NCBI RefSeq assembly: GCF_000025505.1
Contig: NC_013849.1
Span: forward strand, 1,410,001 to 1,442,000
Length of the DNA: 32,000 nucleotides
From: Ferroglobus placidus DSM 10642
Lineage (GTDB): Archaea > Halobacteriota > Archaeoglobi > Archaeoglobales > Archaeoglobaceae
Direction: 5' to 3'
Part shown: positions 16,823 through 30,188 of the stretch, piece by piece
How the letters are laid out: the number at the start of each line of letters is the position of its first letter
Position numbering within the stretch: position 1 is the first letter of the stretch
The notes under the pieces: model-generated
What the model was told of the DNA's origin: nothing
Databases searched by the model: none
Seen by the model: only the letters and a program-made list of their open reading frames with translations
Position numbers and translations under genes: made by a program

Positions 16823-16870
16823 GAACGTTCATAACGAATATAAATTGTTTTTGTTCGATGAATCGAACAA
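16821..16870 (-). promoter_or_regulatory. tupA promoter: TATA box flanked by two palindromes (candidate operator sites)
   Basis: A perfect 12-bp palindrome ATGAACGTTCAT (16821-16832) overlaps the start codon. The minus-strand TATA TTTATATT lies at 16837-16844. A 20-bp imperfect palindrome TTGTTCGATgaATCGAACAA lies at 16851-16870. Confidence 0.4.
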
Positions 16871-17292
16871 CTTACGAAAGACCTCGAACAGCTTGGAACT
16901 GCTCTCTTTTGACGAGGCTTTGAGGAAGCTTGGTATAGATAAAGCTGAAATTCGAAAGGAAATTTCTAAAGAAACTGAGTAAACTTCTCAGAGAAGATCA
17001 AGTCAGAATTCTTGTCAAACTGAAAATCTTCGAGGAAACTGGCAGAGGAGATTTTGAGAGAATACTTTGAGTTTGGGTTTCTATAGATGTTGAGAGATAA
17101 TGCAAAAAACAAACCGATCTTCTTAGTTGATAGAACTCCTTGATACAAAGAGTGCTGCCAAGAAGAGGATTAAAGTACGAAATAAAGACGAGAGGAATGA
17201 GAAACGCTGTTGATTCCTGGATTCTTTTATTCATAGCACCGTACAATTTGAAGAGGAGTTTGGCATGGTTTTTCTCGTGCTACAAAACAAAA

Positions 17293-17300
17293 TTTAAAAA
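17293..17300 (+). promoter_or_regulatory. TATA box (TTTAAAAA) for the DUF499 gene
   Basis: It lies about 25 nt upstream of the ATG at 17325 with no Shine-Dalgarno sequence in between, consistent with a leaderless mRNA. Confidence 0.4.
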
Positions 17301-17324
17301 TTTTAATGAAATAGCAATAATTTG

Positions 17325-20258
17325 ATGACAGGAAACTGGCGCGCATTTAACGAAATTGAAAACGGTGAAATTACTGACGCTTCTTTTGTAGCGAACATAT
17401 GGAGAGTATACAAAGGCGACGCGGACATCGACGAGAGGTATAAAGATGCCAAGAAGTTTTTCGAGAGGACATTCATTTCAGAGGGATTAGAAAATGTGTT
17501 AAAGACAGCTATTGGAAGAGTTTTCGAAGGTAAAGGTGAACCGGTAATTTTGCTTCGAACAACCTTTGGAGGAGGAAAAACTCACACTCTAATAGCTATA
17601 TATCACGCTCTAAAGAACCCACAAACGATCTCAAAATATATCCAAGTACCTGAAAAACGTTTTTCACCCACGTTTGTTGCGTTTGACGGAAGAGAGTTAG
17701 ATTCTCACCGTTTAAAGGAATATTATGGAGCAAATAACTTGTGGCAATTCCTGATGAATGAAATTGCAAAAAAGAGCGGATTTAAAGAGTTTGAAAAAAT
17801 TTGCAGCGATTATTCGAACCCAAAGGAACCTCCAGGAAGTGAAGTGTTAAGAGAAGCATTTAGAAAACTTGAAGACTACGGTCATCCAGTCGTCTTTTTA
17901 CTCGATGAAGTCCCGGACTACATCAACAAATTGCAGTTAAAAGACGAAACTGAAGCTACAGCAGTTATACACTTTTTGGACTCCCTCGCTAACGCTGTAT
18001 CTCATTGCAAATACTCGCTCTTAGTTTTGGCAATACCCGAAATAAAAATGCTAACACAAATTAACGAAGAGATCGTAAGCAATCTGACTGAAAGAGTTGG
18101 TAGAGTTGCTATACCGAGAAACATCGTCGGGAAAAAAGATGCGGCTCACGTGTTAATACGTGCGTTAATCAAAAAAGTTGAAAGTGAGAGTCACAGAGAG
18201 ATTGACTCGCTCTACGAAGTTTACAAGAACAACACCAGGAGTTTTCCAGCGAGCATCTCTACAGCTGACTACCTCGAAAAGATGAGAGCTTATTATCCGT
18301 TCCATCCCCAATATATAGAAGTCCTGTACGACAAAATCGCCAGCCTTGAAACCTTTCAAAGCACGAGAGACATCTTAAGATTGACTGCTCACGTTTTACA
18401 CGTTCTTTGTAGAAAAGACCAGAGAAGGATGGTCTTTCTTTCCGACATAAACATGGCTGAAAAGAGCATAATAGACGAGTTCCTCGATAGGCACGGTTTT
18501 GCAAATCTTAGGCGAGCGATTGAAGTAGACCTTGAGGTTGTGAAAAAGTTAGATGAGGAGAACGTTAGACGAAATCTTCCAGCTATCTTTGTCCCGTTAT
18601 ACTCTTCTATAGCAGTTTACAGCGTAGCCGGTGAAGCTGCCTCGGTTAAGGATTTAACACTCGCAACAATAAAGCCTGGATTGCATCCAAACTACGTGTT
18701 GGGTGCATTGGAGCAGATGATGGAGTCAGATGTAGCTTACGTTTACAAGCTGACGGTAGACGGTGAAACGAAATACACTATTAAAGAGAGAATAAGTTGG
18801 GTTAGACTTGTTGATATAAAATCAAGAGACGTCAGCAATGAAGATGCGAGACAAGAGTTCGACAGTAGGTTTAATGAAGCTTTGAGAAGGTGGGGACGAA
18901 GTATATTTTCGATAGTCTCGCTTGCGAAATCTCCAAGGGATGTTAAAGATGATGAGATTTTGAAGCTCGTATTCTTGGATCCAAACGTAGTTAGAGACGA
19001 AGAAGAAACTCTGAATTTCTTTGCGATCTATTTTGATCCGGCTAAACAAGAACTCAGGAAGTTCAGGAATTCTGTTGTGTTTGCATTACCGGACCAAAGA
19101 GTATACTCGAAGAGTTTAGAAATTGCAAAGAAAATAATTGCTGCTCTGAGAATCAGGGAAGCTAAAGAAACTTACGGATTATCAGAAGAGGACATTGAGG
19201 AGTTAACAAAGCAGATCAATAAATGGAGGGAAGAACTAAAAGAGCGTGCAGCAGCAATTTACAGCAGAGTGGCGTATCCAATAGGCGGAAAAAATGGCGG
19301 AATCCGATTTGAAATTAAAACTGTAAATCACACTAATCCGGTTGAAGCTGCGGCAAAACTTCTTGAAAGAGAAGAGAAGGTGATAAGAGACATATCTGAA
19401 ACGTATTTGTTCAGGTTAGTTAACGAGTATTATGCAGCGATGGGGGATGTTGAATTAAAAATTAAAGAACTTTCTGAGTTTTTTGCAAGGGATCCAGAAA
19501 AACCGTATTTGCTGAAAGCAGCATCAATAGTTTCCGATAAAATTGCCGAACTTGTCGAAAACGGGAAAGTCGTAGTTTTGAAGGGTGGGAAAGTTTATGC
19601 ATATCAGAGAGTTAAAGTCGAGGAAGACGATGTCGTCATTCCAGGGAAGATTGCTGAGCAAAAAGGATTGTGCGTTGAATACGATGGAAAATTCATACCT
19701 CCGCCACCCTCTGAATTAGCTAAGCCAGTATGGGACGAAAAAAGCAGAAAGTGGGTTGAAGGAGAAGTAACAGTGGAAGAAAAGGCTGAAGTTGAGGAAA
19801 GGGGAGAGGAGGTCGAGGAAAAAGTTGAGATTGAAAAACCTAAGAAATTGAAGTTAGAAAATATAAACCTGCCAGAACTAATTGACGCCATTAAAGGAGA
19901 AAGTGGGACGTTTTTAGGTTTTGAAATCAGTGGAGAAGCAACGAAGGATGTGCAGAATACTATTAACTTCTTGAAGTCTTTGAGTGTTCAGTTGAAGAAG
20001 CTCGAACCAGAATTTTCTATATCCGCTGAAGTTGGAGACGGAGACAACATAGATCTCAGATTGACTGGAGATGTGAAAGTTAGCGGAATTAAAGAGGTCC
20101 TCACAATGCTCGAAAGACTTGGCTGCAGAAACATTAGGTATGAGATCGTAATCAGCGAAGCAAAAGCCGAAGACTTGCTCGAAAGCTTGGATGTAAAATT
20201 GTTAAGAGAGAAGTATCGAAAAGAGAAATTCAGCGTGAGTGCAAGGGTGAAAGAATGA
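17325..20258 (+). CDS. DUF499-family P-loop ATPase (COG1483; BrxC/PglY-related, anti-phage-associated)
   Basis: 977 aa from ATG 17325 (track TTG at 17322). The N-terminal block FVANIWRVYKGDA...YKDAKKFFERTFISEGLENVL...ILLRTTFGGGKTHTLIAIYHAL (Walker A) and LLDEVPDY (Walker B) are characteristic of DUF499. Confidence 0.85.
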   Translation: MTGNWRAFNEIENGEITDASFVANIWRVYKGDADIDERYKDAKKFFERTFISEGLENVLKTAIGRVFEGKGEPVILLRTTFGGGKTHTLIAIYHALKNPQTISKYIQVPEKRFSPTFVAFDGRELDSHRLKEYYGANNLWQFLMNEIAKKSGFKEFEKICSDYSNPKEPPGSEVLREAFRKLEDYGHPVVFLLDEVPDYINKLQLKDETEATAVIHFLDSLANAVSHCKYSLLVLAIPEIKMLTQINEEIVSNLTERVGRVAIPRNIVGKKDAAHVLIRALIKKVESESHREIDSLYEVYKNNTRSFPASISTADYLEKMRAYYPFHPQYIEVLYDKIASLETFQSTRDILRLTAHVLHVLCRKDQRRMVFLSDINMAEKSIIDEFLDRHGFANLRRAIEVDLEVVKKLDEENVRRNLPAIFVPLYSSIAVYSVAGEAASVKDLTLATIKPGLHPNYVLGALEQMMESDVAYVYKLTVDGETKYTIKERISWVRLVDIKSRDVSNEDARQEFDSRFNEALRRWGRSIFSIVSLAKSPRDVKDDEILKLVFLDPNVVRDEEETLNFFAIYFDPAKQELRKFRNSVVFALPDQRVYSKSLEIAKKIIAALRIREAKETYGLSEEDIEELTKQINKWREELKERAAAIYSRVAYPIGGKNGGIRFEIKTVNHTNPVEAAAKLLEREEKVIRDISETYLFRLVNEYYAAMGDVELKIKELSEFFARDPEKPYLLKAASIVSDKIAELVENGKVVVLKGGKVYAYQRVKVEEDDVVIPGKIAEQKGLCVEYDGKFIPPPPSELAKPVWDEKSRKWVEGEVTVEEKAEVEERGEEVEEKVEIEKPKKLKLENINLPELIDAIKGESGTFLGFEISGEATKDVQNTINFLKSLSVQLKKLEPEFSISAEVGDGDNIDLRLTGDVKVSGIKEVLTMLERLGCRNIRYEIVISEAKAEDLLESLDVKLLREKYRKEKFSVSARVKE

Positions 20259-20284
20259 ACATCTACTAAAAATGCTCTATTGTT

Positions 20285-22903
20285 TTATTCGTTTATGAAC
20301 TCGTCGAGCGTTTTGATTCTATCTTTCTTTATTCTTATCCCGTTCGGTCTGATTGACAGCATTAGCAATCCTTGAATGGCCATTTTTTCTTCATCTTCCG
20401 GCTCGCCTTCCGCAAGGATTAGCTCGAGGAATTTCGTTGTAACTTCGTCGAGTTTATATCCATGATCCTCAAGAACTTTAATCGCCTCGTGGGGTCCGTT
20501 CGATAAGTATGCTTTGAGACTCGAAGCAATCGCGTCTACCAACCACTTCCCTTCTCCTTTTATCTCCGTAAGAGGCTTTATCTTGTAAGCTTTCGTGCCG
20601 TCCTTTTTCTTTGAAGCTGACGTGTATTTTTCGATGAATTCTTCGTGATCGTAGTTTAGTCCGTAGGCGAGGTAGCGAAGGGAGTCGTATTCTGGTTCGC
20701 CGTAAACTACCCTCGCCATGAGATACATCGCCGTTGCCTGATCGAGAGGGGCTGAAACAAGCTTTTCGAGAACGAGTTTCGAAACTTCGCTCGAAGCAAA
20801 TTGCAAGATTTCTTCGAGATCAACTTTCCGCCCGTCGTACGTGTAGAGGGGCCAGTGCTTCCCGACAACTTCGAAAGCAGCACCCATCCCCATGAGGATA
20901 GCGTCGGAGTAACTCAGGTTGTAGTTAATCGTCCTTTCCACTTCCTTTTCGATCGCTTTTCTGACTTCAGCTCTCAGATTAGCGTCCCAAATCCCTTCAG
21001 TCTCCTTCTCCTTCGGTTTTAACCCGAGGACGAGCATAGTCTTTACGGCGGCTTTTCCAACTATGTGAATACTCCTCGGCTGTTCACTGGCAAATCCCCA
21101 GACGGCGAAGGGGATAAAGCCAGCGTCTAAGGCGGCGTTGAGCATGACTTTCAATCCTTTGAGGCTCCTGTGAGCATACATGAAGACCGCTATTCCATCT
21201 GGCTTTAGCGAAGCTTTTACAAGTTCCAGAACTTCTTTAAGGCTCGACTCGAACCATTTCTCGTCTCTCTTTCTGGTTTTGTTTACTACTATTTCATCCT
21301 CTTTCGGAGTCAGCTCAGTGGAGAACGCCTCTGGATAAAGGTGTCCTATGCTCCTCTTGTGCCAAACGTAGAAGAAGTCAGCGAGCTCCGAATACTGGAC
21401 GTTCGCGTAATAGGGAGGATCTGTTACAACGTAATCGAACTCTCCGAGTTCGAGATACAAACTTGGATCTTTAGCGTTGCCGAGAACGACTTTGACGTCT
21501 CCTTTCGCATCTTTTAGAAGGTTTACGATCTTTTTGAGGGCTGAAACCACTCCTACATTACTTAGCAATGCCCATTCCAATAAACAGTTTTTAGATAATA
21601 AATCTCCTTCAGCAAAGTCTTGGCCCATTCTATAAGCGTGCCGATTAAAAGTATCTCTAATTGACCCTTTGTTATAGGAATCCCAAGAAGTTAAGACTGA
21701 GTTGTAATCAAGCAGCTTTCCGTGGGCTAAAGCCAGATACGTCACGACAGCCTTTGCGTATTCTTCGTCTTCTCCCTCGTTTAAGATTTTTTCGTAAGCT
21801 TCTCTGATGAGTTTAACGATTGTTGCATGAGTCAAAAGCTGTCGAGCGTTGAAGAGCTTGTAGAACTTGTTTATACTCCTCAAAAGAACTTCTCTCGTTT
21901 TATCACCTTCAGGAATTTCCTCTGTGGGGATTAAATCTTTTTCAACGAATTCCTGCCACCTTTCTCTCAAGACCTCCCCAGCTCTCTTAGTAGCTTCAAC
22001 CATTTCGTCTGTTGGCTCCACGAATCTTCCATCGGAAAGTTTGACAGCTGCTAATATTGCAGGATGGTGTCCGTACATTTCTTCCTTCTCCCACCTGTCC
22101 ATTTCCATCCTGTATTGAGCAGACATCTCTTTGGAGGTTAACGTGTGCCCGTCAGGACAGTTCAAACTCTTAACCCCAGTTCCGACTTTATCACCCTCTC
22201 CTTTCACAACCCTAACAACTGGTCTCTCTCCGTCATAATCAAGTTTCAAAGCATACTTGTTCTCTTTAGACAAGATGGGGTGAGAAATTGCTGGAACGAG
22301 TTTTCCGCAGCGACATCTGTAAACCCTGATCCAGATGTAGTTTGCTGGTTCACCTTCTGGGTGCCTCGGGTAGTATTCTGCGAGCTCTTCTCTAACTCTT
22401 TCCAGCAACCACCTGCCCCACTTTTCGACATCTTTAACGAGCTTTTCTCTATACTTTAGGGGGTATTCGAGCGTTGCTTTTAGCAAAATGTAAGCTATCG
22501 GGTTGTATTCGACAGCCACGACCTCCTTAAATCCGAGTCTAAGAGCCTCGAAGGGAATTGATCCACCTCCGGCGAAAACGTCAAGTAGTCTCGCACTCTT
22601 AACGTCCGCATGCTCAAAAACCCAGTCTAAGTTTGGAGAGTAATTGTAAGCTGGTCTGTCGGGGCGTTTGTTTCTGTAAAGTAGGGAGACTGCCTGTTTA
22701 AACTCTTGAAGGAACTTTTTGTCCGGCTCTTTCTCAACTTTAACGGTTGAAGCAGCTATTGTAACTCTCGAGCCTATTAGGGGGCGGCGAGCCCACCAGA
22801 GGTGAAGGTAAAACATTGGTGGGGAAATAACTGCCCGTTCTCTAATCGATTCTTCAGAAGTCTCGAACGTCGGGAAGTAGTATTTGATAAGCCTTTCTGA
22901 CAT
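20285..22903 (-). CDS. DUF1156-family DNA methyltransferase with internal Zn-ribbon (COG1743)
   Basis: 872 aa. DUF1156 hallmark HLWWARRPL, SAM motif I LLDVFAGGGSIPFEA, Cys-ribbon YRCRCGK...LNCPDGH, catalytic motif IV VVTDPPYYANVQY. Confidence 0.9.
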   Translation of the reverse strand: MSERLIKYYFPTFETSEESIRERAVISPPMFYLHLWWARRPLIGSRVTIAASTVKVEKEPDKKFLQEFKQAVSLLYRNKRPDRPAYNYSPNLDWVFEHADVKSARLLDVFAGGGSIPFEALRLGFKEVVAVEYNPIAYILLKATLEYPLKYREKLVKDVEKWGRWLLERVREELAEYYPRHPEGEPANYIWIRVYRCRCGKLVPAISHPILSKENKYALKLDYDGERPVVRVVKGEGDKVGTGVKSLNCPDGHTLTSKEMSAQYRMEMDRWEKEEMYGHHPAILAAVKLSDGRFVEPTDEMVEATKRAGEVLRERWQEFVEKDLIPTEEIPEGDKTREVLLRSINKFYKLFNARQLLTHATIVKLIREAYEKILNEGEDEEYAKAVVTYLALAHGKLLDYNSVLTSWDSYNKGSIRDTFNRHAYRMGQDFAEGDLLSKNCLLEWALLSNVGVVSALKKIVNLLKDAKGDVKVVLGNAKDPSLYLELGEFDYVVTDPPYYANVQYSELADFFYVWHKRSIGHLYPEAFSTELTPKEDEIVVNKTRKRDEKWFESSLKEVLELVKASLKPDGIAVFMYAHRSLKGLKVMLNAALDAGFIPFAVWGFASEQPRSIHIVGKAAVKTMLVLGLKPKEKETEGIWDANLRAEVRKAIEKEVERTINYNLSYSDAILMGMGAAFEVVGKHWPLYTYDGRKVDLEEILQFASSEVSKLVLEKLVSAPLDQATAMYLMARVVYGEPEYDSLRYLAYGLNYDHEEFIEKYTSASKKKDGTKAYKIKPLTEIKGEGKWLVDAIASSLKAYLSNGPHEAIKVLEDHGYKLDEVTTKFLELILAEGEPEDEEKMAIQGLLMLSIRPNGIRIKKDRIKTLDEFINE

Positions 22904-22930
22904 ATTCGAATTCCACCCCCGAAAAACGAC

Positions 22931-24073
22931 TTAAAGACTCTTTAAAAAGCTTATGAGGTCGACACTCTTTAACTGCTTGACTTTCGTGAGTATTTTCAGC
23001 TTGCTACTATTTGCAACGAGCCTTTTGTTTGATACGTATTTCAGCACGTCTTCTTCCAGCGCAATTCTCACCCTTTCAGTTTCTATACCAATCTGCTCGT
23101 AGTTGAATAGCTTTTGAGCAGCCATTCTTTTCTTCTTGGATTGGGAAGTTAAAGTTTTGAGAGGGACTGCCGTATCTTCCGGATAAATTTCCTCAACTTC
23201 CTTTAACCCAACTTTCTGATAAGCGTAATCGTCTTTGTTGAACAGCCTTAAGTCGCTAATTTTTTCCTCTACTCCGTAATCCCTCGTCCCAAGGTGATTG
23301 TCTGCGATTGCATCGAGACCCAAACCGAAAGACAGAACATCTTGAGCTAAGATCTCACTGCTCTTTTTGCTCGGCTTTCCGATGTTAACGTTTACGCTGT
23401 AAATAAAAGCGTCAACGTCTTTTTGGTGGAGCAGGTTCTGTATCTGAGATATCTGCTGGTAATGAGTAAAGGGTGTTCGTCCAGCAAAATCCAAGCAAAA
23501 AGCTTTGATACCATGCTCAAAATACAGATCAAGGAGTTCGGAAATTTTGACTGGCGGCAGAGTTATAGGAATCAAACCCATTATCGGTTTTCTCTGCTTG
23601 GACCCCTCAGCTTTTTCAAGAAAACTCTCTACTATCGAGAAATACCTCTCAATGTCCTTTACGGTTGCGACTTTGTGAACTCTCTCGACAGTAGGAGGAA
23701 CGTAAAAATCGAAGACGCTCTCGGTATCTCTGATGAAATCCAATTCGGAATCGGTAACTTCAAACGTTTTTAACGCGGGAACGAAAATAATCGGTGTGCT
23801 TTTAGAAGGGACATTGTGTAAAGCTCTCTTGATGTCCTTATTCAGTCTGTCTCTGCTTTCAACCTTTCCCGACACGAGTTCGATTAGTTTCTCCTTAGTG
23901 AATGTCTTGTAAACTTCTCCAACGTATTCCTCCCAGTTCAGCTTAATATCTGACTTAAAGTATCTGAGGTTAATAGCTTTGATCGGAGTTTTGAAGCTTT
24001 TACCTCTGATTTTAACCTTCTTGTGAGAATAGAACGTCTTCTCGTCTTCTCTTACAACTTCAATTTTTAACAT
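22931..24073 (-). CDS. Hypothetical 380-aa protein, first gene of the operon with the DUF1156 methylase
   Basis: A long ORF with protein-like composition, ending 27 nt upstream of the methylase start on the same strand. It shows regular alternation of hydrophobic beta-like and amphipathic helix-like segments (PIIFVPAL / VFDFYVPP / PIMGLIPITL / IKAFCLDFAG / AFIYSVNVN / LDAIADNH). No family recognised. Confidence 0.75.
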   Translation of the reverse strand: MLKIEVVREDEKTFYSHKKVKIRGKSFKTPIKAINLRYFKSDIKLNWEEYVGEVYKTFTKEKLIELVSGKVESRDRLNKDIKRALHNVPSKSTPIIFVPALKTFEVTDSELDFIRDTESVFDFYVPPTVERVHKVATVKDIERYFSIVESFLEKAEGSKQRKPIMGLIPITLPPVKISELLDLYFEHGIKAFCLDFAGRTPFTHYQQISQIQNLLHQKDVDAFIYSVNVNIGKPSKKSSEILAQDVLSFGLGLDAIADNHLGTRDYGVEEKISDLRLFNKDDYAYQKVGLKEVEEIYPEDTAVPLKTLTSQSKKKRMAAQKLFNYEQIGIETERVRIALEEDVLKYVSNKRLVANSSKLKILTKVKQLKSVDLISFLKSL

Positions 24074-24112
24074 CGAAATGTTTTATAACGACAACCCTTA
24101 AAACTTTTCCTA

Positions 24113-24706
24113 ATGGCTATTGAAGCGGATCATTTGAAACATCTGAGCCCAATACAAGCTCTTATTCTATTGCTGCTTGACAGCGAAAACGCTCAACCAG
24201 TTAAAGGAAGAACTTGGCTTCAGAAGGAGATGTTCCTAATATTAAGCAATGCTGGCAAAGAAATTGAAGAAGAGGCACAGTTCGAACCTCACCACTTTGG
24301 ACCCTACAGCGAGGTCGTGGAGTCAGAATTAGCGAATCTAAAATTACTTGGACTTGTGGACGAAAATAAAGAGATACGGATAACTAAGGCTGGTAAAAAG
24401 ATTGCAGCAGAACTGAGAAAATACGTCAGCCCGAAATTTCTTGAGTTCATATCCCAAGTGAAAAGAGAACTAAATGATCTTACCGAAGACGAGTTGCTCG
24501 CCTATATATACTTTACTTTCCCCGAAATGACGAGCGAATCGAAAGCCTTAGAGAGAATTTTAAAGAAGAGGAAGTGGCTTGCTTTATCGCTCTATCGAAA
24601 AGGAAAAGTCAGCTTATCTAAAGCATCACAAATCGCTGGCGTAAGTGTTAGCGAGTTCTCTAAATTTTTAAGAAGTAAAAATATTGGGGTCTCTCTGGGG
24701 TGGTAA
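24113..24706 (+). CDS. Composite antitoxin: N-terminal Panacea/DUF4065-like plus winged-helix region fused to a C-terminal UPF0175 (COG2886) antitoxin domain
   Basis: 197 aa. N-terminal part: WLQKEMFLIL...FEPHHFGPYSEVVESEL (LQK..F / F.p..yGPy pattern of the SocA/Panacea domain) and LKLLGLVDENKEIRITKAGKKI (wing). C-terminal part: ALSLYRKGKVSLSKASQIAGVSVSEFSKFLRSKNIGVSL, a typical UPF0175 domain. Confidence 0.65.
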   Translation: MAIEADHLKHLSPIQALILLLLDSENAQPVKGRTWLQKEMFLILSNAGKEIEEEAQFEPHHFGPYSEVVESELANLKLLGLVDENKEIRITKAGKKIAAELRKYVSPKFLEFISQVKRELNDLTEDELLAYIYFTFPEMTSESKALERILKKRKWLALSLYRKGKVSLSKASQIAGVSVSEFSKFLRSKNIGVSLGW

Positions 24707-25199
24707 CATCCCGGAGAGCTTAATTTTGGATACAAGCGTGCTTATTGCGTTTTATTCAGAGCTGGCTCGTCCGGAATTGCTGTTATCTCTCCACGATCAT
24801 GGTTTTCGCTTGTATGTCCCTAAAGCCGTGTATGAGGAATTTATGGATGACGTAAACTTCAAACATTTAGAGACTCACGTAAAAAACGGATATTATACGA
24901 TACTCGGGAATATTCCCGAAAACGATGTTTACAGACTTAAACTGAAGTTCCCAAGTCTTGGAGATGGCGAAATTGAAGTTATCTGGTGGGGGCTAAAGTT
25001 TGAGAACTGTTTTTGCGTGTTGGACGATAAAAAAGCTAACAAGAGCGCAAAAAGCATGGGCTTGAAAGTAACTGGAACAATAGGTATTTTGCGGATTTTG
25101 GCTGAAATGGGGGTTATAAGTGAGAGTGAAAAGCGAAAATTGTGTGTAGAATTAATTGAGCGCGGATTTCGATTTCCGAAAGAGAAGTGTTTCGAGTAG
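24684..25199 (+). CDS. PIN-domain toxin, DUF3368/COG2405 type
   Basis: LILDTSVLIAF, YEEF, GDGEIEVIWWG, CVLDDKKANKSAKSMGLKVTGTIGILRIL match the COG2405 PIN family that partners UPF0175. The start is ambiguous: TTG 24684 (23-nt overlap with the antitoxin) or TTG 24726. Confidence 0.8.
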   Translation: MGSLWGGNIPESLILDTSVLIAFYSELARPELLLSLHDHGFRLYVPKAVYEEFMDDVNFKHLETHVKNGYYTILGNIPENDVYRLKLKFPSLGDGEIEVIWWGLKFENCFCVLDDKKANKSAKSMGLKVTGTIGILRILAEMGVISESEKRKLCVELIERGFRFPKEKCFE

Positions 25200-25210
25200 T
25201 AATTTATTTA

Positions 25211-25246
25211 TCGATCAGATTTTGATTAATACATAATGCTGATCGA
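25211..25246 (+). promoter_or_regulatory. 8-bp inverted repeat TCGATCAG / CTGATCGA bracketing the start of the nuclease gene, just downstream of a TATA box
   Basis: Arms at 25211-25218 and 25239-25246. The TATA-like TTTATTTA at 25203-25210 lies about 27 nt upstream of ATG 25236. Confidence 0.3.
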
Positions 25247-26912
25247 AGACCACATTAAGAATCTGACAAAGCAAGAAGGTTGTGCTAAAGCAGCATCTGA
25301 AATTTTAAGTAGAACAGCACACTTGATAAAAGCAAGAAGTGTCGCTTACGGAGCTGCTCATTGTATTTTCAAGGCTCGTCTCGTCGAAGCGTTTGGGGCG
25401 AGTGGTTTCTTTCAGAGCATAATCCCCGGAAAAGGTAATCTCGTTCACCAAATCCTCGCTATTGCTTTTCCTCGAGCGTTCGTCGATAAAATAAAAAGAA
25501 ATTTGCAAGAACTCAAATACTACGTTGACGAAGCTGAAAAACTCTTAGAAGAATATGGAATGATTTCTGATCCTTCTCCAAATCTAATCTCTACAGCAAA
25601 AAATGAGTCTCTGACAATGCTAAAACACGCTTTAAAAGTCATTCCAGAAATAGCGGAAAAAATAGGATTGGAACTCGAGAGAGCGAGAGTTTACGCAGAA
25701 ATGCAGTTGATGAGTTACAAACTTCACGTTTGGGGTGTAATCGACGCACTCGTCGAAGATAGGATTAATAGAAAAGCAATCGTGATTGACTGGAAGACTG
25801 GGCATCAACTTGAAAGTAAGGCTGCACAAATAAGTGATCCAGACATAGCCCAGGTTTGCTGCTACGCGTTACTTGAAGCTGATAGACTCGAATTTGAAGA
25901 TCCAAGAAAACCAGTTTTAGAAGGAGAGATCGTTCCCTTAATTATCAGACCCCGCGGAAATATACCAGTGGCGAGTATAAGCCCAGTATACGAAACTATG
26001 AAGAGAAGGACAACCTTAGAGGAATACCTCAATAACATAATCTTGGCAGCAGAGCACCTGACTCTCGTCTTAAGTAACGTAAGAAGACTTATAGGACCAA
26101 CTTTCGAGAATATATGTAAATTTAAAACTCGGCAAGGCAGAAGAGCAAGCGCTTTTCGATATACTCCCTACAACCTGCCAAAAGGAAACCCAAAGACCAA
26201 TAGTTACCGATGCAAAATATGTGGATTAACTGAGGAATGTCTTTTCTACATAGGAAGCTACGAAGAACCCGAAGAGATTGATAGACTCGCTTGGAGGTCG
26301 AGATACGCAATTTATGCGATAAGAGAGAACGCACTAATGCCCTACAAGGAAATCCACGAAAAAATAAGTTACTATAATTTCGACGTTAGGAGTTTTGAGC
26401 AAGGAGAAACTTTCACACTCGAAAGTGGAAACAGAATAGACGTGTTTAGCGATGCTGAAGCATCTGAAGACGGAATAATCCTTAGAAGAGAAGTTAGAGA
26501 AAGAGAAATAAGAGAGGAGAGGATAATTTCGGTAAGAGAAGGTAGGCCAGTGGCAGTTTTTTTCTACGAGGACGTTAAAAGCCCCTTACTAAGGTTGAGC
26601 TTCGTCGGTAGGGTTGACGAATTTCAGCAGGAGGAAGATGAAGTCTCTATTCTTGTAAGCGCACCGAACATCCCCTCAAGGCTACACCATATCCTCTTCA
26701 AGTTTTACCTTGAAAATTGGAGAGATCTGACACTCAGCATACTGGCTGTCGAGACAAACGTAGATTTGACACAAATGGAACTCAGGGCGATAGACGCTTT
26801 TCAGAGAGGAACAAAAAGGATGAAAGAAAAACTCTATAATCTTGAAGAGAACTTAGAAAATCTCAAAAATGAAGCTCTTGCCATACTCTTTGGTTCTCTA
26901 CCTTTGAGGTGA
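25236..26912 (+). CDS. Cas4/RecB-family PD-(D/E)XK nuclease with Fe-S Cys cluster, plus a C-terminal beta-barrel/stalk-like region (N-terminal half of a split Dna2-like protein)
   Basis: 558 aa. Motif order: AAHC...R, GNLVHQIL, E(MQL), GVIDALVED, IVIDWKTG (D-x-K), QVCCYALL (QhxxY), then CKICGLTEEC (C-x2-C-x5-C). The remaining roughly 210 aa are strand-rich (ETFTLESGNRIDVF...RPVAVFFYED...LSFVGRVDEF...VSILVSAP) and end in a helical tail. Confidence 0.8.
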   Translation: MLIEDHIKNLTKQEGCAKAASEILSRTAHLIKARSVAYGAAHCIFKARLVEAFGASGFFQSIIPGKGNLVHQILAIAFPRAFVDKIKRNLQELKYYVDEAEKLLEEYGMISDPSPNLISTAKNESLTMLKHALKVIPEIAEKIGLELERARVYAEMQLMSYKLHVWGVIDALVEDRINRKAIVIDWKTGHQLESKAAQISDPDIAQVCCYALLEADRLEFEDPRKPVLEGEIVPLIIRPRGNIPVASISPVYETMKRRTTLEEYLNNIILAAEHLTLVLSNVRRLIGPTFENICKFKTRQGRRASAFRYTPYNLPKGNPKTNSYRCKICGLTEECLFYIGSYEEPEEIDRLAWRSRYAIYAIRENALMPYKEIHEKISYYNFDVRSFEQGETFTLESGNRIDVFSDAEASEDGIILRREVREREIREERIISVREGRPVAVFFYEDVKSPLLRLSFVGRVDEFQQEEDEVSILVSAPNIPSRLHHILFKFYLENWRDLTLSILAVETNVDLTQMELRAIDAFQRGTKRMKEKLYNLEENLENLKNEALAILFGSLPLR

Positions 26913-26916
26913 GCGT

Positions 26917-28428
26917 ATGGCAATCTACTATCTTGATGATGGCTTGAAAGAAGCTTTTAGATTGGCAAAAAGAAAAGAAAAGTGGGCACTACTTGAATCT
27001 CAGAAAAAAGCTACAGAACTCATGAAAAAGACTGTTGATGGTGAACTTAGCCTTGCAGCAGTTCAAGGACCTCCGGGGACAGGCAAAACAAGTGTTGTCG
27101 AAGCTTTTGCCAAGGAAGAGTTACCAGATTTCGTAACACAATCAGAAAACGAGCTAATTTTGTATATTGCTCCAACGAATCACCTCGTTTATGAAGCTTT
27201 CAAGAGAATTTCAGCCCAATTAATCAAAAAAGGATTTGATATCCAGTCTCTCTTGAGCGTTGTGCGAGTATACGGTTCGAAAATTAAACCTATGAAGGAA
27301 AAAGAGGTGATAATCGGAGATAAAAAACTCGAGAGAGACGATCTAAATAGACTCGTGAGCAACGTAGATAACAATGTCCGGATAATTTTTGCGACAGAAT
27401 TCCAGAGAGTTTCAAGTAGACTTGAAGTTGAACCAAAAAGGATACACATAGTTGCTGACGAGGCAAGTAAGTCTCCATATTTCAGAGTTTTTCTACCTTT
27501 AGCTGAAAAAATAGCTAAGAATCCAGAAGAATACTATCCTTACACTCTCCTCGTTCTTGGAGATCCACAACAGGCAATTACAGTTCCAGAGGAGTTTACT
27601 ATAATGGATGTCCCGCTTCTCATGAAATTAACAGAGAGAGTTCTCAAAGAGAACGACTTGAAAAAAGATTGTTGGGTTATGCTCGACACGACCTTCAGAC
27701 TACCACGTCCTTCAGAAGACCCTATAAGCCACGGATTTTATAGAGGAAAACTACATGCGCACTATACCTCAAGAGAACGATTAGAGATTATTAAAGACTC
27801 GATATTAGACAACATCAGCAGAATTACTTCTGCGCTTGACAAAGCGGGTGTTCGAGCAACTTCACTTGACGTTAAAAAGATCGTTGACGGAATAGAGGAG
27901 GCTATAACTTCTAACATTCCGATAGTCGTTGTAAAAACTCGTCCTTTTAAGAGTGGAGACACTTACGACGAAGAGCGCGTTAAAAAGGCATTTATAATTT
28001 CCTCTATTTTTCAATTGGCATCTCACTTTTCTGGATATAGTTTCAGCGTAACTACTACTGCTCCATACTGTGATATCGTTGATTCAATAGCATTTAAATT
28101 TCACAGAAGATTTCACAACTTTGGATCGATACGAGCACCGAGGGCAGTTACCGTGCAATCACTTATAGGGGGAGAGAGCGATGTCATTGTGGCTCCACTC
28201 GGTAAAGAGTGGTTACCAAGTGAGATTCGTTACCACCCTTCGGAAGAATTTACAACAATATACGCAAGAGAACCGGAATTGCTTAACGTTCAAATGAGCA
28301 GACATCGATCACTTATGGTTGTAATTGGCAATACTGACAGATTAATGAACCAGAGAGAAAGAAGGATTCAAAGGACTGTAGAAAGGTTGGAAGAGCTTGA
28401 AGGTAAAGGAACTTTAATTATCTCTTAG
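26917..28428 (+). CDS. SF1B helicase, Dna2/Upf1-like (AAA_11/AAA_12 type)
   Basis: 503 aa. Motifs: I VQGPPGTGKTS; Ia YIAPTNHLV; II IVADEASKS; III LVLGDPQQ; IV LDTTFRLPRPSEDPISHGFYRGKL; V VTVQSLIGGESDVIV; VI LLNVQMSRHRSLMVVIGN. A GAGGTGA Shine-Dalgarno sequence spans the upstream stop, and the gap is 4 nt. Confidence 0.9.
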   Translation: MAIYYLDDGLKEAFRLAKRKEKWALLESQKKATELMKKTVDGELSLAAVQGPPGTGKTSVVEAFAKEELPDFVTQSENELILYIAPTNHLVYEAFKRISAQLIKKGFDIQSLLSVVRVYGSKIKPMKEKEVIIGDKKLERDDLNRLVSNVDNNVRIIFATEFQRVSSRLEVEPKRIHIVADEASKSPYFRVFLPLAEKIAKNPEEYYPYTLLVLGDPQQAITVPEEFTIMDVPLLMKLTERVLKENDLKKDCWVMLDTTFRLPRPSEDPISHGFYRGKLHAHYTSRERLEIIKDSILDNISRITSALDKAGVRATSLDVKKIVDGIEEAITSNIPIVVVKTRPFKSGDTYDEERVKKAFIISSIFQLASHFSGYSFSVTTTAPYCDIVDSIAFKFHRRFHNFGSIRAPRAVTVQSLIGGESDVIVAPLGKEWLPSEIRYHPSEEFTTIYAREPELLNVQMSRHRSLMVVIGNTDRLMNQRERRIQRTVERLEELEGKGTLIIS

Positions 28429-29544
28429 CTCTTAGTCTAATTAAATATAGCCCTTTGCCCTTACCCCTCAATCCGAGCAACCTCAATTCTGCTTTTAAAC
28501 CGAAATCCTCAGCAATTCGTTTCAAAAATTCGTGTGTTGGGATGTATGTCCCTTTGAATATTGAATCTCCTATTGTATACCAAGCTTCCCATGCGAGTCT
28601 CTCCGAAACGAGTTCTAAATGTCTCTCCATATAGTAGAAGTATTGGGATAGAAACACATGGTATTTTCTGTCACTCCTGATCTCAAAAATTTTGTCTAAA
28701 ATCCATTTTCTTTCAGTCTTTTTTTCCATTTTCTCGCACTCGCTTCGCATGCCGGGATTTGCAAACTTCTGAGCATTCCAAGATCCTTGGAATCTTTAGC
28801 CAATCCAGCCCAAAGTATGTGTAGCTGTGTATGTCTTATGTAGTCTATGTTATTTGCAAATGGCGGACTTGTCAAAATACCGTCAAATGCTTTTGGTAAC
28901 CAAACGCTTGAGTCAGCTAAAACTAAATCAATATTTCCATCATTTCCGTAGCATTCCAAATCTGAATATGCCTGAAGAAACAACTCTTTGAACTCTTCGA
29001 AAATTTTATGCTTACTCGATTTACAAACAATCTTTCGATACCTTGGAGCGGGGGATTTCCTTAACCTTGAATATTTTTCAGCAACTTTCGCTAAAATCGT
29101 TAACAAAAGACTATCGTTCTTGAAATCGTTAATAAGGGATCTTATTTTGCCTAACGCTTCCAATTGGGTGGGTGAATGGTAGTTCTTTAATCTTTCTGAT
29201 GGGATTAACATCTTGTAGTCATCGATATTTGAGTAAGCTTCTAAGAACTCTTTTTTATCCAAACGAGGTTTGTCTACTTTTGATTTTGTTACAAGAAGTG
29301 ACCAAGGGTTCGAATCGATGCCTACACAATCAATACCTCTTTTTTTCGCCTCTACAGCGACAGTCCCTGAGCCGACAAAAGGGTCTAATACGAGATTGCC
29401 ACGACTTTTACTAAATTCTTGAAAAAATTCGTTAACCAATTGCTTAGTCATTCCATGTTCGCAGAATACTAAAATTCTGTGTATTCGTTCGTTTTTCCAA
29501 GGATTTCTTGGAAAACGGTTTTCTTGCATGAGGTCCCGTATCAC
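28418..29544 (-). pseudogene. DNA methyltransferase (motif I ... motif IV order, SPPF catalytic motif) split by a frameshift at an A7 tract; a pseudogene or a slippage-dependent gene
   Basis: ORF 28696..29544 (282 aa) starts at GTG 29544, preceded by GGAGGGTG. It carries VLDPFVGSGTVAVEA (SAM motif I) and ILTSPPFANNIDY (motif IV). ORF 28418..28750 (110 aa) reads like the missing C-terminal MTase core (RKYHVFLSQYFYYMERHLELVSERL...GDSIFKGTYIP...IAEDFGLKAE). The frames overlap at 28696-28750 around T7/A7 at 28719-28725. One extra A would fuse them into about 375 aa. Confidence 0.75.
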
Positions 29545-29804
29545 TTAGCACCCTCCATTAAACAATCAGTTTTTATTTATATTGCTTTCCCGTTCGAGTT
29601 TTAAGGATTAATGATACTATTTCCTCGCAACTCGTCTATTAAATTCCAAAGTTTAAATAAACACTAAGCAGTTCTTTTGACAGTTAGGGAATTCTCTGGT
29701 TACAAAGTAGAATTATCATAACAGCCTCCCAGCAATAATATTGTTCGAACCGTATGGGATTTGACGATTGCAAGCGAGATAAGTTTCTCAACACTAACAC
29801 CTAA

Positions 29805-29832
29805 CAATATATTTTTATCAATATATTTTTAT
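29805..29832. repeat. Perfect 14-bp tandem direct repeat (CAATATATTTTTAT x2) inside a 522-bp AT-rich non-coding spacer
   Basis: Read directly: 29805-29818 and 29819-29832 are identical. Confidence 0.9.
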
Positions 29833-30066
29833 CGTGACTGTCTGGCAAATAAATCTGCGAACTTTTCGAGTTCGTGTATTCTCAGGAACATCCCTCTCTG
29901 CATGTTCGAGTATGCACTCTCGGCATATATAGTACTTTTGGAAAATTTATATAAATTCATGAAAAATGCTCTAAATCTACAAACCTTAATTTCGCTTAAA
30001 TTTGGCAAATTAGCTCTCAAAATCACCAATTGGTTGAAAACAGGTAGGATTTACTCGAAATTTTGA

Positions 30067-30139
30067 TGGGTCCGCCCGGATTCGAACCGGGGACCTCCTG
30101 CGTGTGAGGCAGGCGTCATAACCACTAGACCACGGACCC
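30067..30139 (-). tRNA. tRNA-Val (anticodon CAC)
   Basis: The minus strand reads GGGTCCGTGGTCTAGTGGTTATGACGCCTGCCTCACACGCAGGAGGTCCCCGGTTCGAATCCGGGCGGACCCA. It folds as a cloverleaf: 7-bp acceptor GGGTCCG/CGGACCC, anticodon stem CCTGC/GCAGG with loop CTCACAC, T arm CCCGG-TTCGAAT-CCGGG, discriminator A. No CCA is encoded. Confidence 0.92.
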
Positions 30140-30164
30140 AGCAGTACTGTGTTTTACTCTTAGC

Positions 30165-30176: not shown

Positions 30177-30188
30177 ATGGTTTGCTTT

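What the first reader, a model, noticed from the sequence alone, without database searches (positions are those of the whole stretch)
16823..30139. A roughly 13 kb defence-type genomic island inserted between tupA and the 3' end of tRNA-Val(CAC)
Every gene between 17325 and 29544 is defence- or addiction-like: an ATPase, two methylases, a nuclease, a helicase, a TA pair and an unknown protein.

The block abuts the 3' end of a tRNA gene, a classic integration target. It is bracketed by two AT-rich spacers of about 0.5 kb.

By eye, most of its genes (DUF499, the TA pair, the nuclease, the helicase and the second MTase) prefer AAA/GAA/TTA/ATA codons. Flanking core genes prefer AAG/GAG/CTC/CTG.

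No integrase or transposase is present, and I could not find a direct repeat of the tRNA 3' half. Mobility, if any, is therefore ancient or used a lost or trans-acting recombinase.
Basis: partly seen in the sequence, partly recalled or inferred. Interest (0 to 1): 0.7.

Follow-up and report, generated by a model that had tools for sequence, protein, structure and literature searches.

The report
Archaeal defence island, Snf2-less Hma variant
A 13-kb strain-specific stretch of the Ferroglobus placidus chromosome, next to a tRNA gene, carries an antiviral defence system of a known family (DUF499/DUF1156, called Hma or BREX-related) in which the usual helicase-nuclease is replaced by a two-gene Dna2-like nuclease and helicase plus an extra methylase, with a small toxin-antitoxin-like module nested inside it.

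Summary
The window is Ferroglobus placidus DSM 10642. Comparison with its closest relatives fixes a strain-specific segment at 16856-30061. Homology stops about 30 bp upstream of tupA and 3 nt past the 3' end of tRNA-Val(CAC). The block is compositionally distinct (GC3 0.405 vs 0.504, p=2.5e-4). No integrase, att repeat or recombinase remnant was found.

The content is not a loose set of eight defence genes. Five genes form one recurring architecture: DUF499 ATPase -> <- DUF1156 methylase | PD-(D/E)XK nuclease -> SF1 helicase -> <- second methylase. Ten of 12 informative related loci keep the nuclease cassette next to DUF1156, and no Snf2 helicase was found at any of them. The nuclease model matches eukaryotic Dna2 (Foldseek E 7e-9). 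With the AAA_11/AAA_12 helicase it looks like a split Dna2-like effector replacing the Snf2-nuclease HmaA of Hma/BR systems.

The other three genes (unannotated TIM-barrel protein, DUF7317-UPF0175, DUF3368 PIN = PADLOC PDC-S70) form a conserved module. It fills the 62-88 bp DUF1156|nuclease gap, matching the known embedding of defences in Hma loci.

Verdict: a real island holding a new variant of a known kind. Function and mechanism are inferred, not tested.

The parts
16856..17324 (.). Left boundary spacer. It is AT-rich and non-coding. Homology to the Ferroglobus sp. MAG ends at 16855.
   Evidence: blastn homology ends at 16855; 35.3% GC and no similarity to any fetched locus; spacer ORFs give no Pfam hit at E<=0.1.
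17325..20258 (+). DUF499 / HmaC-like ORC/Cdc6-type AAA+ ATPase, 977 aa. Predicted sensor, scaffold and methylase loader.
   Evidence: PADLOC HmaC 7e-66. NCBIfam DUF499_antiphage 3e-28, far below that model's equivalog cut-off. P-loop GGGKT and Walker B VFLLDE are intact; 37-55% identical orthologues sit in the same position in L020, L027 and L030.
20285..22903 (-). DUF1156 / HmaB-like N6-adenine DNA methyltransferase, 872 aa. Predicted self-marking enzyme.
   Evidence: Pfam DUF1156, PADLOC HmaB 4.5e-54, NCBIfam DUF1156_antiphage 1.6e-46; motifs FAGGG and DPPY are intact; it is the best-conserved component, 58-77% identical in class A loci.
22931..24073 (-). Unannotated 380-aa protein (Ferp_1652) with a predicted TIM-barrel-like fold. 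It is the first gene of the embedded three-gene module and sits 27 nt upstream of the DUF1156 gene on the same strand.
   Evidence: no Pfam, NCBIfam or PADLOC hit; model pLDDT 71, pTM 0.73; only weak Foldseek hits to TIM barrels, with the best global match to tRNA-guanine transglycosylase at TM 0.45-0.50; the family has 551 cluster representatives; in the close subfamily it is always next to a UPF0175 and DUF3368 pair.
24113..24706 (+). Antitoxin-like protein of 197 aa, with an N-terminal DUF7317 / Abi_alpha-like domain and a C-terminal UPF0175 HTH.
   Evidence: Pfam UPF0175 4.6e-10 and Abi_alpha 4e-4. PADLOC PDC-M19A 7e-14 and PDC-S70 1.6e-6; 61-63% identical orthologues in L015 and L017.
24684..25199 (+). 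DUF3368 (COG2405) PIN-like nuclease, the PADLOC candidate PDC-S70. Predicted toxin or effector of the embedded module. The true start is uncertain: another annotation aa starting near 24843.
   Evidence: Pfam DUF3368 9e-8. PADLOC PDC-S70 1.9e-17; alternative gene call. PMC5499597 (UPF0175 is found exclusively with COG2405); PMC12988326.
25236..26912 (+). Dna2-like RecB-family PD-(D/E)XK nuclease with conserved Fe-S-type cysteines, followed by a beta-barrel/stalk region, 558 aa. Predicted nuclease half of the effector.
   Evidence: Pfam PDDEXK_1 9e-10; invariant D170, W186-K187, Q206xxxY210 and C326xxC329x5C335; model pLDDT 86, pTM 0.89. Foldseek top hits are Dna2 5eax/5eaw at E 6.6e-9 over about 570 columns, then SETX, AddB, MGME1 and Cas4.
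26917..28428 (+). SF1B (Upf1/Dna2-type, AAA_11/AAA_12) helicase, 503 aa. It starts 4 nt after the nuclease stop. Predicted motor half of the effector.
   Evidence: Pfam AAA_11 5e-11 and AAA_12 3.6e-5. GPPGTGKT, IVADE and GDPQQ are intact; it directly follows the nuclease in every related locus.
28418..29544 (-). Second DNA methyltransferase, 375 aa when intact. It is convergent with the helicase and overlaps its 3' end by 11 nt. In this assembly it is frameshifted at the homopolymer at 28726.
   Evidence: Pfam N6_N4_Mtase / MethyltransfD12 and PADLOC MTase_II 1.8e-21. FVGSG and SPPF motifs. T7 here vs T8 in L013; conserved in the same convergent position.
29545..30061 (.). Right boundary spacer. 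It is AT-rich and non-coding. Homology to relatives L040/L041 resumes at 30062.
   Evidence: homology covers 30062-30183; 33.3% GC. ORFs have no family hits.
30065..30140 (-). tRNA-Val(CAC). Its 3' end faces the block. It is conserved in relatives and marks the right junction.

Best explanation
Window 16856-30061 is a strain-specific, horizontally acquired segment of the Ferroglobus placidus chromosome. It lies in a variable site between the tupA promoter and the 3' end of tRNA-Val(CAC).

[quoted passage not shown] In this version the usual Snf2 helicase-nuclease fusion (HmaA) is replaced by a three-gene cassette:
- a Dna2-like PD-(D/E)XK nuclease with Fe-S-type cysteines,
- a tightly coupled SF1B helicase,
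- a second, small DNA methyltransferase.

Proposed mechanism, inferred by homology and not tested here:
1. The DUF499 AAA+ ATPase loads the DUF1156 N6-adenine methylase on DNA, so that host sites are marked.
2. When the complex meets unmodified sites on invading DNA, it recruits or licenses the nuclease-helicase pair.
3. That pair, like Dna2, threads and degrades DNA from ends or single-stranded regions.
4. The second methylase adds a further self-mark or protects against the cassette's own nuclease.

Nested in the divergent promoter gap between the DUF1156 and nuclease genes is an autonomous three-gene module: a TIM-barrel protein, a DUF7317-UPF0175 antitoxin-like protein and a DUF3368 PIN nuclease. 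It most likely acts as a toxin-antitoxin-type back-up (abortive infection) or as a stabiliser of the locus.
For: Shown here.

Island status:
- Sharp junctions at 16855 and 30062 against the closest relatives.
- Distinct codon composition.
- Housekeeping flanks.

Five-gene unit:
- tblastn mapping and gene tables give the complete layout DUF499 -> <- DUF1156 | NUC -> helicase -> <- MTase in L020/21, L027 and L030.
- L024, L026, L028 and L031 are truncated copies with DUF1156 directly divergent from the nuclease.
- L022 and L033 show a second order: cassette, then DUF1156 -> DUF499.
- Overall, 10 of 12 loci with informative flanks keep the cassette next to DUF1156.
- Identities of DUF1156 and the nuclease to the window co-vary across loci (Pearson r=0.90, p=9e-4; Spearman 0.68, p=0.04).
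- tblastn with an HmaA query finds no Snf2 helicase in the window or in any cassette locus, and no SNF2 Pfam hit occurs in the block.

Dna2-like effector:
- Foldseek E 6.6e-9 to Dna2.
- RecB-family and CxxCx5C motifs are invariant.
- The helicase is AAA_11/AAA_12.
- There is a 4-nt gap between the two genes.

Integrity: all catalytic motifs are intact.

Embedded module:
- The trio is conserved in six contexts. It also occurs standalone in L044.
- It fills a gap that is 62-88 bp in trio-less loci.

From the literature:
- 62.7-66.5% of Hma loci carry embedded defence genes (10.1101/2024.01.29.577857; PMC11232893).
- The DUF499 ATPase loads the methylase and triggers a helicase-nuclease in MANTIS, a BR Type-2 system (10.64898/2026.09.23.753747).
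- Nhi shows that a nuclease plus SF1B helicase can defend on its own (10.1101/776245).
Against: - No function was tested.
- The cassette also occurs without DUF499/DUF1156 nearby: L025 has SIR2 and TaqI-like neighbours and L032 has a DISARM-like context. It can therefore exist as a separate unit.
- The related loci are mostly short metagenomic contigs of uncertain independence. A Snf2 helicase further away cannot be excluded for the truncated ones.
- The Dna2 resemblance is structural only. A family profile finds nothing in PDB sequences.
- The second methylase is frameshifted in the reference assembly.
- DUF499 scores far below NCBIfam's equivalog cut-off (98 vs 1200 bits), so it is a divergent member.
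- No empty site, integrase or att was found, so the route of acquisition is unknown.
Confidence: 0.65

Rival explanations
1. The block is an ordinary defence island holding three independent systems that merely sit side by side. These would be a degenerate, helicase-less DUF499/DUF1156 pair, an autonomous nuclease-helicase-methylase restriction-modification-like system, and a PIN/UPF0175 toxin-antitoxin module with an accessory gene.
For: - The cassette occurs without DUF499/DUF1156 in L025 and L032, and the trio occurs alone in L044.
- HmaA loci lack hmaB or hmaC in 15-19% of cases, so the modules are separable (PMC11232893).
- Hma-type loci are known insertion hotspots (10.1101/2024.01.29.577857).
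- The cassette has its own methylase, as a self-contained R-M system would.
Against: - Ten of 12 informative loci keep the cassette directly next to DUF1156, in two different gene orders.
- The components have co-diverged.
- None of these DUF499/DUF1156 pairs has a helicase of its own. All described BR/Hma types have one (PMC12839542).
Confidence: 0.25
2. The block is the decayed remnant of a tRNA-integrated mobile element (virus, plasmid or integrative element). Its integrase and att repeat have eroded, and only the selectively useful defence cargo remains.
For: - The right junction lies exactly at the tRNA 3' end.
- The AT-rich, non-coding 0.5-kb spacers at both ends could be decayed element termini.
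- A related cassette in L019 sits beside two Phage_integrase fragments.
- Integrases neighbour 19% of hmaA loci (PMC11232893).
Against: - No integrase fragment appears in any frame of the spacers.
- No tRNA-derived repeat of 13 nt or more exists, and no terminal repeats.
- No relatives of the two block-specific families tested (the nuclease and the 380-aa protein) occur in viral contigs. The nuclease has none in plasmids.
- Relatives carry different DNA at the same two junctions. That also fits cargo exchange by homologous recombination between conserved flanks.
Confidence: 0.3
3. The block is ancestral to Ferroglobus and was lost or replaced in the sampled relatives. On this view its lower GC reflects gene-specific constraints, not foreign origin.
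For: - Only one or two related species could be compared, and only through short contigs.
- The DUF1156 and 380-aa genes have host-like GC3.
- The closest relatives of the system include Archaeoglobales sequences.
Against: - Six of the eight genes deviate strongly in GC3 and codon use.
- Both junctions are abrupt and lie in intergenic DNA.
- The same system occurs in hosts of 37-55% GC in unrelated genomic contexts.
Confidence: 0.08

Closest known systems
Hma system (HmaA Snf2-NOV_C helicase-nuclease, HmaB DUF1156 methylase, HmaC DUF499 ATPase), also called the Type-1 DUF499-centred BREX-related (BR) system
   Same: It has the DUF499 AAA+ ATPase and the DUF1156 N6-adenine methylase as core genes. 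It is R-M-like in logic, carries other defence genes embedded between the effector and the methylase, and occurs in archaea (PMC12839542, PMC11232893, 10.1101/2024.01.29.577857).
   Different: There is no Snf2/SF2 helicase and no NOV_C nuclease domain. In their place are a standalone Dna2-like Fe-S nuclease, an SF1B helicase and a second methylase. The genes lie on both strands in a fixed convergent/divergent layout, not in one co-directional operon.
MANTIS (Gao_RL; BR Type-2: MtsA DUF499, MtsB, MtsC methylase, MtsD SF2 helicase-PLD nuclease)
   Same: It has a homologous ATPase and methylase pair. Its experimentally shown logic, in which the ATPase loads the methylase and unmodified sites trigger a motor-nuclease, is the best available template for this system (10.64898/2026.09.23.753747).
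   Different: No block protein gives a Pfam hit to the small Type-2-specific protein (MtsB; named DUF3780 in PMC12839542 and DUF3870 in the MANTIS preprint) or to a PLD/HKD nuclease. The effector here is SF1B plus PD-(D/E)XK, split over two genes, and there is an extra methylase.
Dna2 nuclease-helicase (eukaryotic replication and repair enzyme)
   Same: It is the best structural match of the 558-aa nuclease (Foldseek E 6.6e-9). Shared features are a RecB-type nuclease with a CxxCx5C Fe-S-type cysteine motif, followed by a barrel/stalk region and then an Upf1-like SF1B helicase.
   Different: The nuclease and helicase are separate genes here. No sequence-level similarity is detectable. The context is defence, not replication.
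Nhi (nuclease-helicase immunity, Staphylococcus)
   Same: It combines a PD-(D/E)XK-type nuclease with an SF1B helicase, with Upf1 and DNA2 as structural homologues, and acts against phage DNA (10.1101/776245).
   Different: Nhi is a single polypeptide of the DUF2075 family that acts alone, without methylases or a DUF499 partner. Only a weak PADLOC hit links them (1.4e-4).
COG2405 (DUF3368 PIN) / UPF0175 type II toxin-antitoxin pair, the PADLOC candidate PDC-S70
   Same: The UPF0175 gene sits directly upstream of, and overlaps, the DUF3368 PIN gene. The family is archaeal-enriched and was picked up by guilt-by-embedding (PMC5499597, PMC12988326).
   Different: The antitoxin-like protein carries an extra N-terminal DUF7317/Abi_alpha-like domain. 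The pair is consistently linked to a divergently transcribed, unannotated TIM-barrel protein. The known three-component COG2405 systems use an HTH plus a DUF955 protease (PMC5499597).

Membership tests
Hma (PADLOC definition) | HmaC: DUF499 AAA+ ATPase | tested here: met
   PADLOC HmaC 7e-66 over residues 10-723. Walker motifs are intact.
Hma (PADLOC definition) | HmaB: DUF1156 DNA adenine methylase | tested here: met
   Pfam DUF1156 1e-8, PADLOC HmaB 4.5e-54, NCBIfam DUF1156_antiphage 1.6e-46. FAGGG and DPPY motifs are present.
Hma (PADLOC definition) | HmaA: Swi2/Snf2 helicase, usually with a C-terminal NOV_C nuclease | tested here: not met
   No SNF2, Helicase_C or NOV_C Pfam hit in any block protein. 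tblastn with an HmaA query (from L015) finds nothing in the 32-kb window.
Hma (PADLOC definition) | All hma genes on one strand, used as a curation filter by Payne et al. | tested here: not met
   DUF499 is on the plus strand and DUF1156 on the minus strand, convergent. The criterion is taken from 10.1101/2024.01.29.577857.
BR Type-2 (MANTIS) | Standalone small Type-2-specific protein (named DUF3780 in PMC12839542, DUF3870 in the MANTIS preprint) and an HKD/PLD nuclease fused to an SF2 helicase | tested here: not met
   No hit to such a family or to PLDc among block proteins.
BR Type-3 | Standalone PglZ and an inactive STAND protein, with a nuclease-less BrxHII-type helicase | tested here: not met
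   No PglZ or STAND hit in block proteins.
tRNA-integrated mobile element | Boundary at the 3' end of a tRNA gene | tested here: met
   Homology with relatives ends 3 nt past the tRNA-Val 3' end.
tRNA-integrated mobile element | Integrase gene, intact or split | tested here: not met
   No recombinase domain in any ORF of the block, the spacers or the flanks.
tRNA-integrated mobile element | Direct repeat (att) of the tRNA 3' part at the far end | tested here: not met
   No tRNA-region k-mer of 13 nt or more elsewhere in the window. No bracketing repeats.
Dna2-like nuclease-helicase | RecB-family nuclease motifs with four Fe-S-type cysteines | tested here: met
   Invariant D170, W186-K187, Q206, Y210, C294, C326, C329 and C335 across 22 sequences. 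Residue 185 is D in the window, giving DWK, and the CxxCx5C motif is present. Binding of an Fe-S cluster is inferred from the motif.
Dna2-like nuclease-helicase | Overall fold of the Dna2 N-terminal half | tested here: met
   Foldseek vs PDB: 5eax/5eaw at E 6.6e-9 and 3.3e-8, probability 1.00, about 570 columns; query model pLDDT 86. TM-score normalised to the query is only 0.44.
Dna2-like nuclease-helicase | Nuclease and SF1B helicase in one polypeptide | tested here: not met
   They are two genes separated by 4 nt. All 24 family members found are 311-631 aa and none is fused to a helicase.
COG2405/UPF0175 toxin-antitoxin (PDC-S70) | DUF3368 PIN gene preceded by a UPF0175 gene | tested here: met
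   Pfam and PADLOC hits. The ORFs overlap (24684 vs 24706).
COG2405/UPF0175 toxin-antitoxin (PDC-S70) | Toxicity of the PIN protein, neutralised by the partner | not testable with these tools
   This needs expression experiments.

The most novel reading that the evidence does not exclude
The five-gene layout (DUF499, DUF1156, split Dna2-like nuclease, SF1B helicase, second methylase) is a distinct, so far undescribed fourth subtype of DUF499-centred BREX-related defence. It would be found mainly in thermophilic archaea, with a Snf2 double-strand translocase-nuclease exchanged for an end-threading Dna2-type machine. The nested TIM-barrel protein would be a new enzymatic partner of PIN/UPF0175 modules, possibly a transglycosylase-like base-exchange enzyme.
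Probability: 0.4. Interest if true: 0.6.

Novelty: new variant of a known kind. Interest (0 to 1): 0.5.

Why it matters
DUF499/DUF1156 (Hma, BR, MANTIS) systems are among the more widespread methylation-based defences and are relatively abundant in archaea, where immunity is poorly charted. All subtypes described so far couple the ATPase-methylase core to an SF2/Snf2 motor-nuclease.

A recurrent variant that uses a split Dna2-like nuclease and an SF1B helicase would show that the effector slot is exchangeable across helicase superfamilies. It would give a compact archaeal model for how a Dna2-type enzyme is licensed by an epigenetic sensor. It would also add an unannotated protein family (about 550 sequence clusters) to the list of defence-embedded candidates.

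For genome annotation there is a practical point. Because PADLOC's Hma definition includes a helicase component (HmaA), rule-based callers are likely to miss loci like this one. This was not tested by running such a tool.

Tried and rejected
- Integrase remnants: six-frame ORFs of both spacers scanned against Pfam at E<=0.1; tblastx and blastn of the spacers against all fetched loci, including the integrase fragments in L019. Nothing found.
- att search: k-mers of 10-20 nt from 30000-30200 against the whole window and a repeat finder over the block gave only chance-level matches.
- RNA families in the block and spacers: only the tRNA itself.
- Bacterial promoter and terminator scan: not above the shuffled expectation, and not appropriate for an archaeon.
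- Empty-site search: the single genome-contig scan with TupA and context look-ups of the glycosyltransferase orthologues gave junctions but no contig spanning tupA to tRNA-Val. A more distant Archaeoglobaceae genome (L043) has no synteny here at all.
- TGT/DpdA-like reading of the 380-aa protein: Foldseek TM is only 0.45-0.50 at E about 3e-3. Profiles of 12 and 87 sequences find nothing significant in PDB sequences; ArcTGT appears at E=0.41. There is no Pfam hit in 87 members. I kept this only as a weak lead.
- Mobility via plasmids or viruses: no relatives in viral contigs. There is no nuclease relative in plasmids. One distant 380-aa homologue sits on a Haloarcula plasmid without PIN or UPF0175 partners.
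- My early impression that the 380-aa family is rare (12 hits) was wrong. The exhaustive profile search finds 551 cluster representatives.

Full report
Identity and setting. The window encodes eIF2-gamma, SRP54, RNase HII, Hjc and other archaeal housekeeping genes. The 380-aa block protein is 100% identical to Ferp_1652 of Ferroglobus placidus DSM 10642. An independent assembly (L013) matches window 7325-30102 at 99.987%. To the left of the block lie a tungstate/molybdate-type ABC transporter (tupCBA, ending with tupA at 15845-16822, minus strand) and a fragmented penicillin amidase. To the right lie tRNA-Val(CAC) (30065-30140, minus), a group-1 glycosyltransferase and a uridine-kinase-like gene.

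Check of the observation.
- The two spacers are 35.3% and 33.3% GC.
- GC3 is 0.405 for the nine block ORFs against 0.504 for 17 flank genes (Mann-Whitney p=2.5e-4).
- The pooled synonymous-codon chi-square is 198, against a maximum of 85 for 200 random splits of the flank genes.
- AAA and GAA are preferred as claimed. Leu codon usage as a whole is marginal, and ATA is not different.
- No tRNA-derived repeat of 13 nt or more exists, no repeat pair brackets the block, and no recombinase domain exists anywhere in the window.
- One detail differs. The second methylase is split here by a T7 homopolymer at 28726, whereas L013 has T8 and an intact 375-aa gene.

Is it an island?
- The closest genome available, a Ferroglobus sp. 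MAG (TupA 91% identical), aligns with the window at 86% DNA identity through tupCBA. The alignment stops at window 16855, about 30 bp upstream of the tupA start. The MAG then carries 1.36 kb of unrelated DNA with small AbrB-like ORFs before its contig ends.
- On the other side, metagenomic contigs of a close relative (glycosyltransferase 86% identical) align through the glycosyltransferase and tRNA-Val and stop at window 30062, 3 nt past the tRNA 3' end. One contig ends there. The other continues for 979 nt of unrelated DNA encoding a ribbon-helix-helix-like ORF and a Cdc6-lid fragment.
- The strain-specific segment is therefore 16856-30061.
- No contig spans the site, so no empty site was seen. 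The relatives hold different DNA at both junctions, which makes this a variable hotspot. A more distant Archaeoglobaceae genome has no synteny here.

What the cargo is: the five-gene system.
- PADLOC assigns 17325-20258 to HmaC/DUF499 (7e-66) and 20285-22903 to HmaB/DUF1156 (about 1e-54). [quoted passage not shown]
- The third Hma component, a Snf2 helicase fused to a NOV_C nuclease (PMC11232893), is absent. No block protein has such domains, and tblastn with an HmaA query finds nothing in the window.
- I looked up relatives of the 558-aa PD-(D/E)XK protein (24 found) with their contexts, and ran a metagenome scan that gave 16 more loci.
- Mapping all block proteins on these loci shows that nuclease -> SF1 helicase -> <- methylase is an invariant cassette. 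The nuclease and helicase are separated by at most a few nucleotides, and the helicase and methylase 3' ends overlap.
- In 10 of 12 loci with informative flanks the cassette lies directly next to DUF1156.
- Class A has the window's layout, DUF499 -> <- DUF1156 | nuclease -> helicase -> <- methylase. It is complete in L020/21, L027 and L030, and cut by contig ends in L024, L026, L028 and L031.
- Class B has the cassette followed by DUF1156 -> DUF499 (L022 and L033). In L022 an AAA_21 ATPase pair lies in between, like the insertions described in Halomonas hma operons (PMC11232893).
- Identities of DUF1156 and the nuclease to the window co-vary across loci (r=0.90).
- No Snf2 helicase was found in the sequence available at any of these loci.
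- Two loci, L025 and L032, carry the cassette in other defence contexts (SIR2/TaqI-like and DISARM-like), so the cassette is separable.

The effector.
- A family alignment of the nuclease shows invariant RecB-family motifs (D170, the (D/E)-W-K motif at 185-187, QxxxY) and cysteines C294 and C326xxC329x5C335. I recognise this pattern as the Fe-S motif of Cas4, AddB and Dna2; that attribution rests on my own knowledge.
- The AlphaFold model (pLDDT 86, pTM 0.89) matches mouse Dna2 far better than anything else in the PDB (E 6.6e-9 over about 570 columns). The accessory domains of the Upf1-like helicase SETX come next, followed by AddB, MGME1 and Cas4.
- The next gene is an AAA_11/AAA_12 helicase, the Pfam families of Upf1/Dna2-type SF1B enzymes, with intact Walker A and B motifs and GDPQQ.
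- The pair therefore reads as a Dna2-like nuclease-helicase split into two genes. This rests on structure and motifs, because profile searches find no PDB sequence relative.
- Nhi is a functional precedent for a nuclease plus SF1B helicase in immunity (10.1101/776245).

The embedded module.
- The 380-aa protein has no hit in Pfam, NCBIfam or PADLOC.
- Its close relatives (12 in the indexed search) always sit beside a roughly 200-aa DUF7317-UPF0175 protein and a DUF3368 PIN protein.
- The arrangement is usually divergent (window, L015/16, L017, L044/45, L046) and once co-directional (L018).
- In L015/16, L017 and L046 the trio lies between a canonical HmaA helicase and, where the downstream flank is available (L015, L017), the DUF1156 methylase. 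These three HmaA proteins are 75-86% identical, so they count as one lineage.
- In L044 the trio stands alone among metabolic genes.
- In trio-less class A loci the DUF1156|nuclease gap is 62-88 bp. In the window the trio fills it with junctions of 27, 39 and 36 bp.
- This is the embedding phenomenon reported for 62.7-66.5% of Hma loci (10.1101/2024.01.29.577857; PMC11232893).
- The PIN gene matches PADLOC's embedding-derived candidate PDC-S70, which is predominantly archaeal (PMC12988326).
- UPF0175 is the known partner of COG2405 PIN toxins. The published three-component versions use a DUF955 protease, not a TIM barrel (PMC5499597).
- The 380-aa model (pLDDT 71) is TIM-barrel-like. Its only resemblances are weak, to tRNA-guanine transglycosylases and other barrels.
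- An exhaustive profile search shows the family has 551 cluster representatives, with no Pfam domain in 87 sampled members and no significant PDB sequence match.
- A distant plasmid-borne homologue in Haloarcula lacks PIN and UPF0175 partners. The linkage therefore holds for the close subfamily only.

Mechanism (inferred).
- In MANTIS, a BR Type-2 system, the DUF499 ATPase and a co-factor load the methylase to hemimethylate asymmetric sites. Recognition of unmodified sites then triggers a helicase-nuclease (10.64898/2026.09.23.753747).
- By homology I propose the same sensing and marking core here, coupled to a Dna2-type effector that needs DNA ends or single-stranded regions.
- The role of the second methylase is open. 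It could add a further self-mark or protect against the cassette's own nuclease.
- The trio most likely provides toxin-antitoxin-type back-up or locus stabilisation.
- None of these steps was tested.

Comparison and novelty.
- The locus shares two of three defining components with Hma/BR Type-1. It fails the third (the Snf2 helicase-nuclease), and it lacks the hallmarks of Types 2 and 3 (a small Type-2-specific protein with HKD/PLD; PglZ with iSTAND).
- The main text of the BR survey describes only Swi2/Snf2 helicases. It mentions SF1 only in a reference title, and Ferroglobus does not appear in the supplement text that is held. I cannot exclude that such loci are listed in supplementary tables that I could not read.
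- I therefore rate it a new variant of a known kind, of moderate interest. The island itself is an ordinary phenomenon.

Noticed in passing
window 25611, 27758, 28726: The only three differences between this assembly and an independent F. placidus read set (L013) over 22.8 kb all fall inside the nuclease-helicase-methylase cassette, which is 19% of the span (p about 0.007 if the differences were placed at random). They are a synonymous change in the nuclease, A281V in the helicase at a position that is Ala in 12 of 14 family members, and the T7/T8 homopolymer that breaks or restores the second methylase. This could reflect lab-line evolution, phase variation or a homopolymer sequencing error.
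   Followed up: partly
window 12436-14144 (minus strand): The penicillin amidase gene is broken into at least three ORFs (117, 116 and 179 aa). It lacks about 0.8 kb that is present in the Ferroglobus sp. MAG (L001 5061-5270 and 5409-6011), so it is a pseudogene in F. placidus.
   Followed up: partly
L013 end (window 30102); L041 end (8 nt after tRNA-Val): Two independent assemblies break inside or right after tRNA-Val(CAC). This may reflect a repeat shared with other tRNA-Val genes, or population heterogeneity at this hotspot.
   Followed up: no
L019 4638-7718: In the locus with one of the two closest nuclease relatives (67% identical), the cassette is followed by an EVE-domain protein, two unknown genes and two Phage_integrase fragments (202 and 186 aa), and then by housekeeping genes. 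This is the only recombinase signal seen near any copy of the system.
   Followed up: no
L032 1-15892: Here the cassette sits between a PLD nuclease with an Lhr-like DEAD helicase on one side and an Eco57I-like N6 methylase on the other. That is a DISARM-like neighbourhood without DUF499 or DUF1156, so the cassette can also be embedded in other methylation-based systems.
   Followed up: partly
L020 7326-9949 / L021 4650-7273: The DUF1156 methylase of the otherwise complete five-gene locus is split into 648-aa and 230-aa ORFs. This is probably a frameshift or stop in that organism.
   Followed up: no
window 29806-29835: A short tandem direct repeat, AATATATTTTTATC twice, lies in the right spacer. 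It might be a pair of TATA-like elements. No function is assigned.
   Followed up: no
window 8722-9138 (minus strand): A 138-aa PIN protein (PIN_4/PIN_9, with a weak DUF3368 hit) sits between the Hjc resolvase and eIF2-gamma genes, with overlapping gene ends. It is a housekeeping-context PIN, distantly related to the toxin-like one in the island.
   Followed up: no
window 16821-16982 (plus strand): A 53-aa ORF is called as a gene in another annotation of this genome. It begins at the tupA start codon and runs through the left junction. It has no family support and is probably not a gene.
   Followed up: partly
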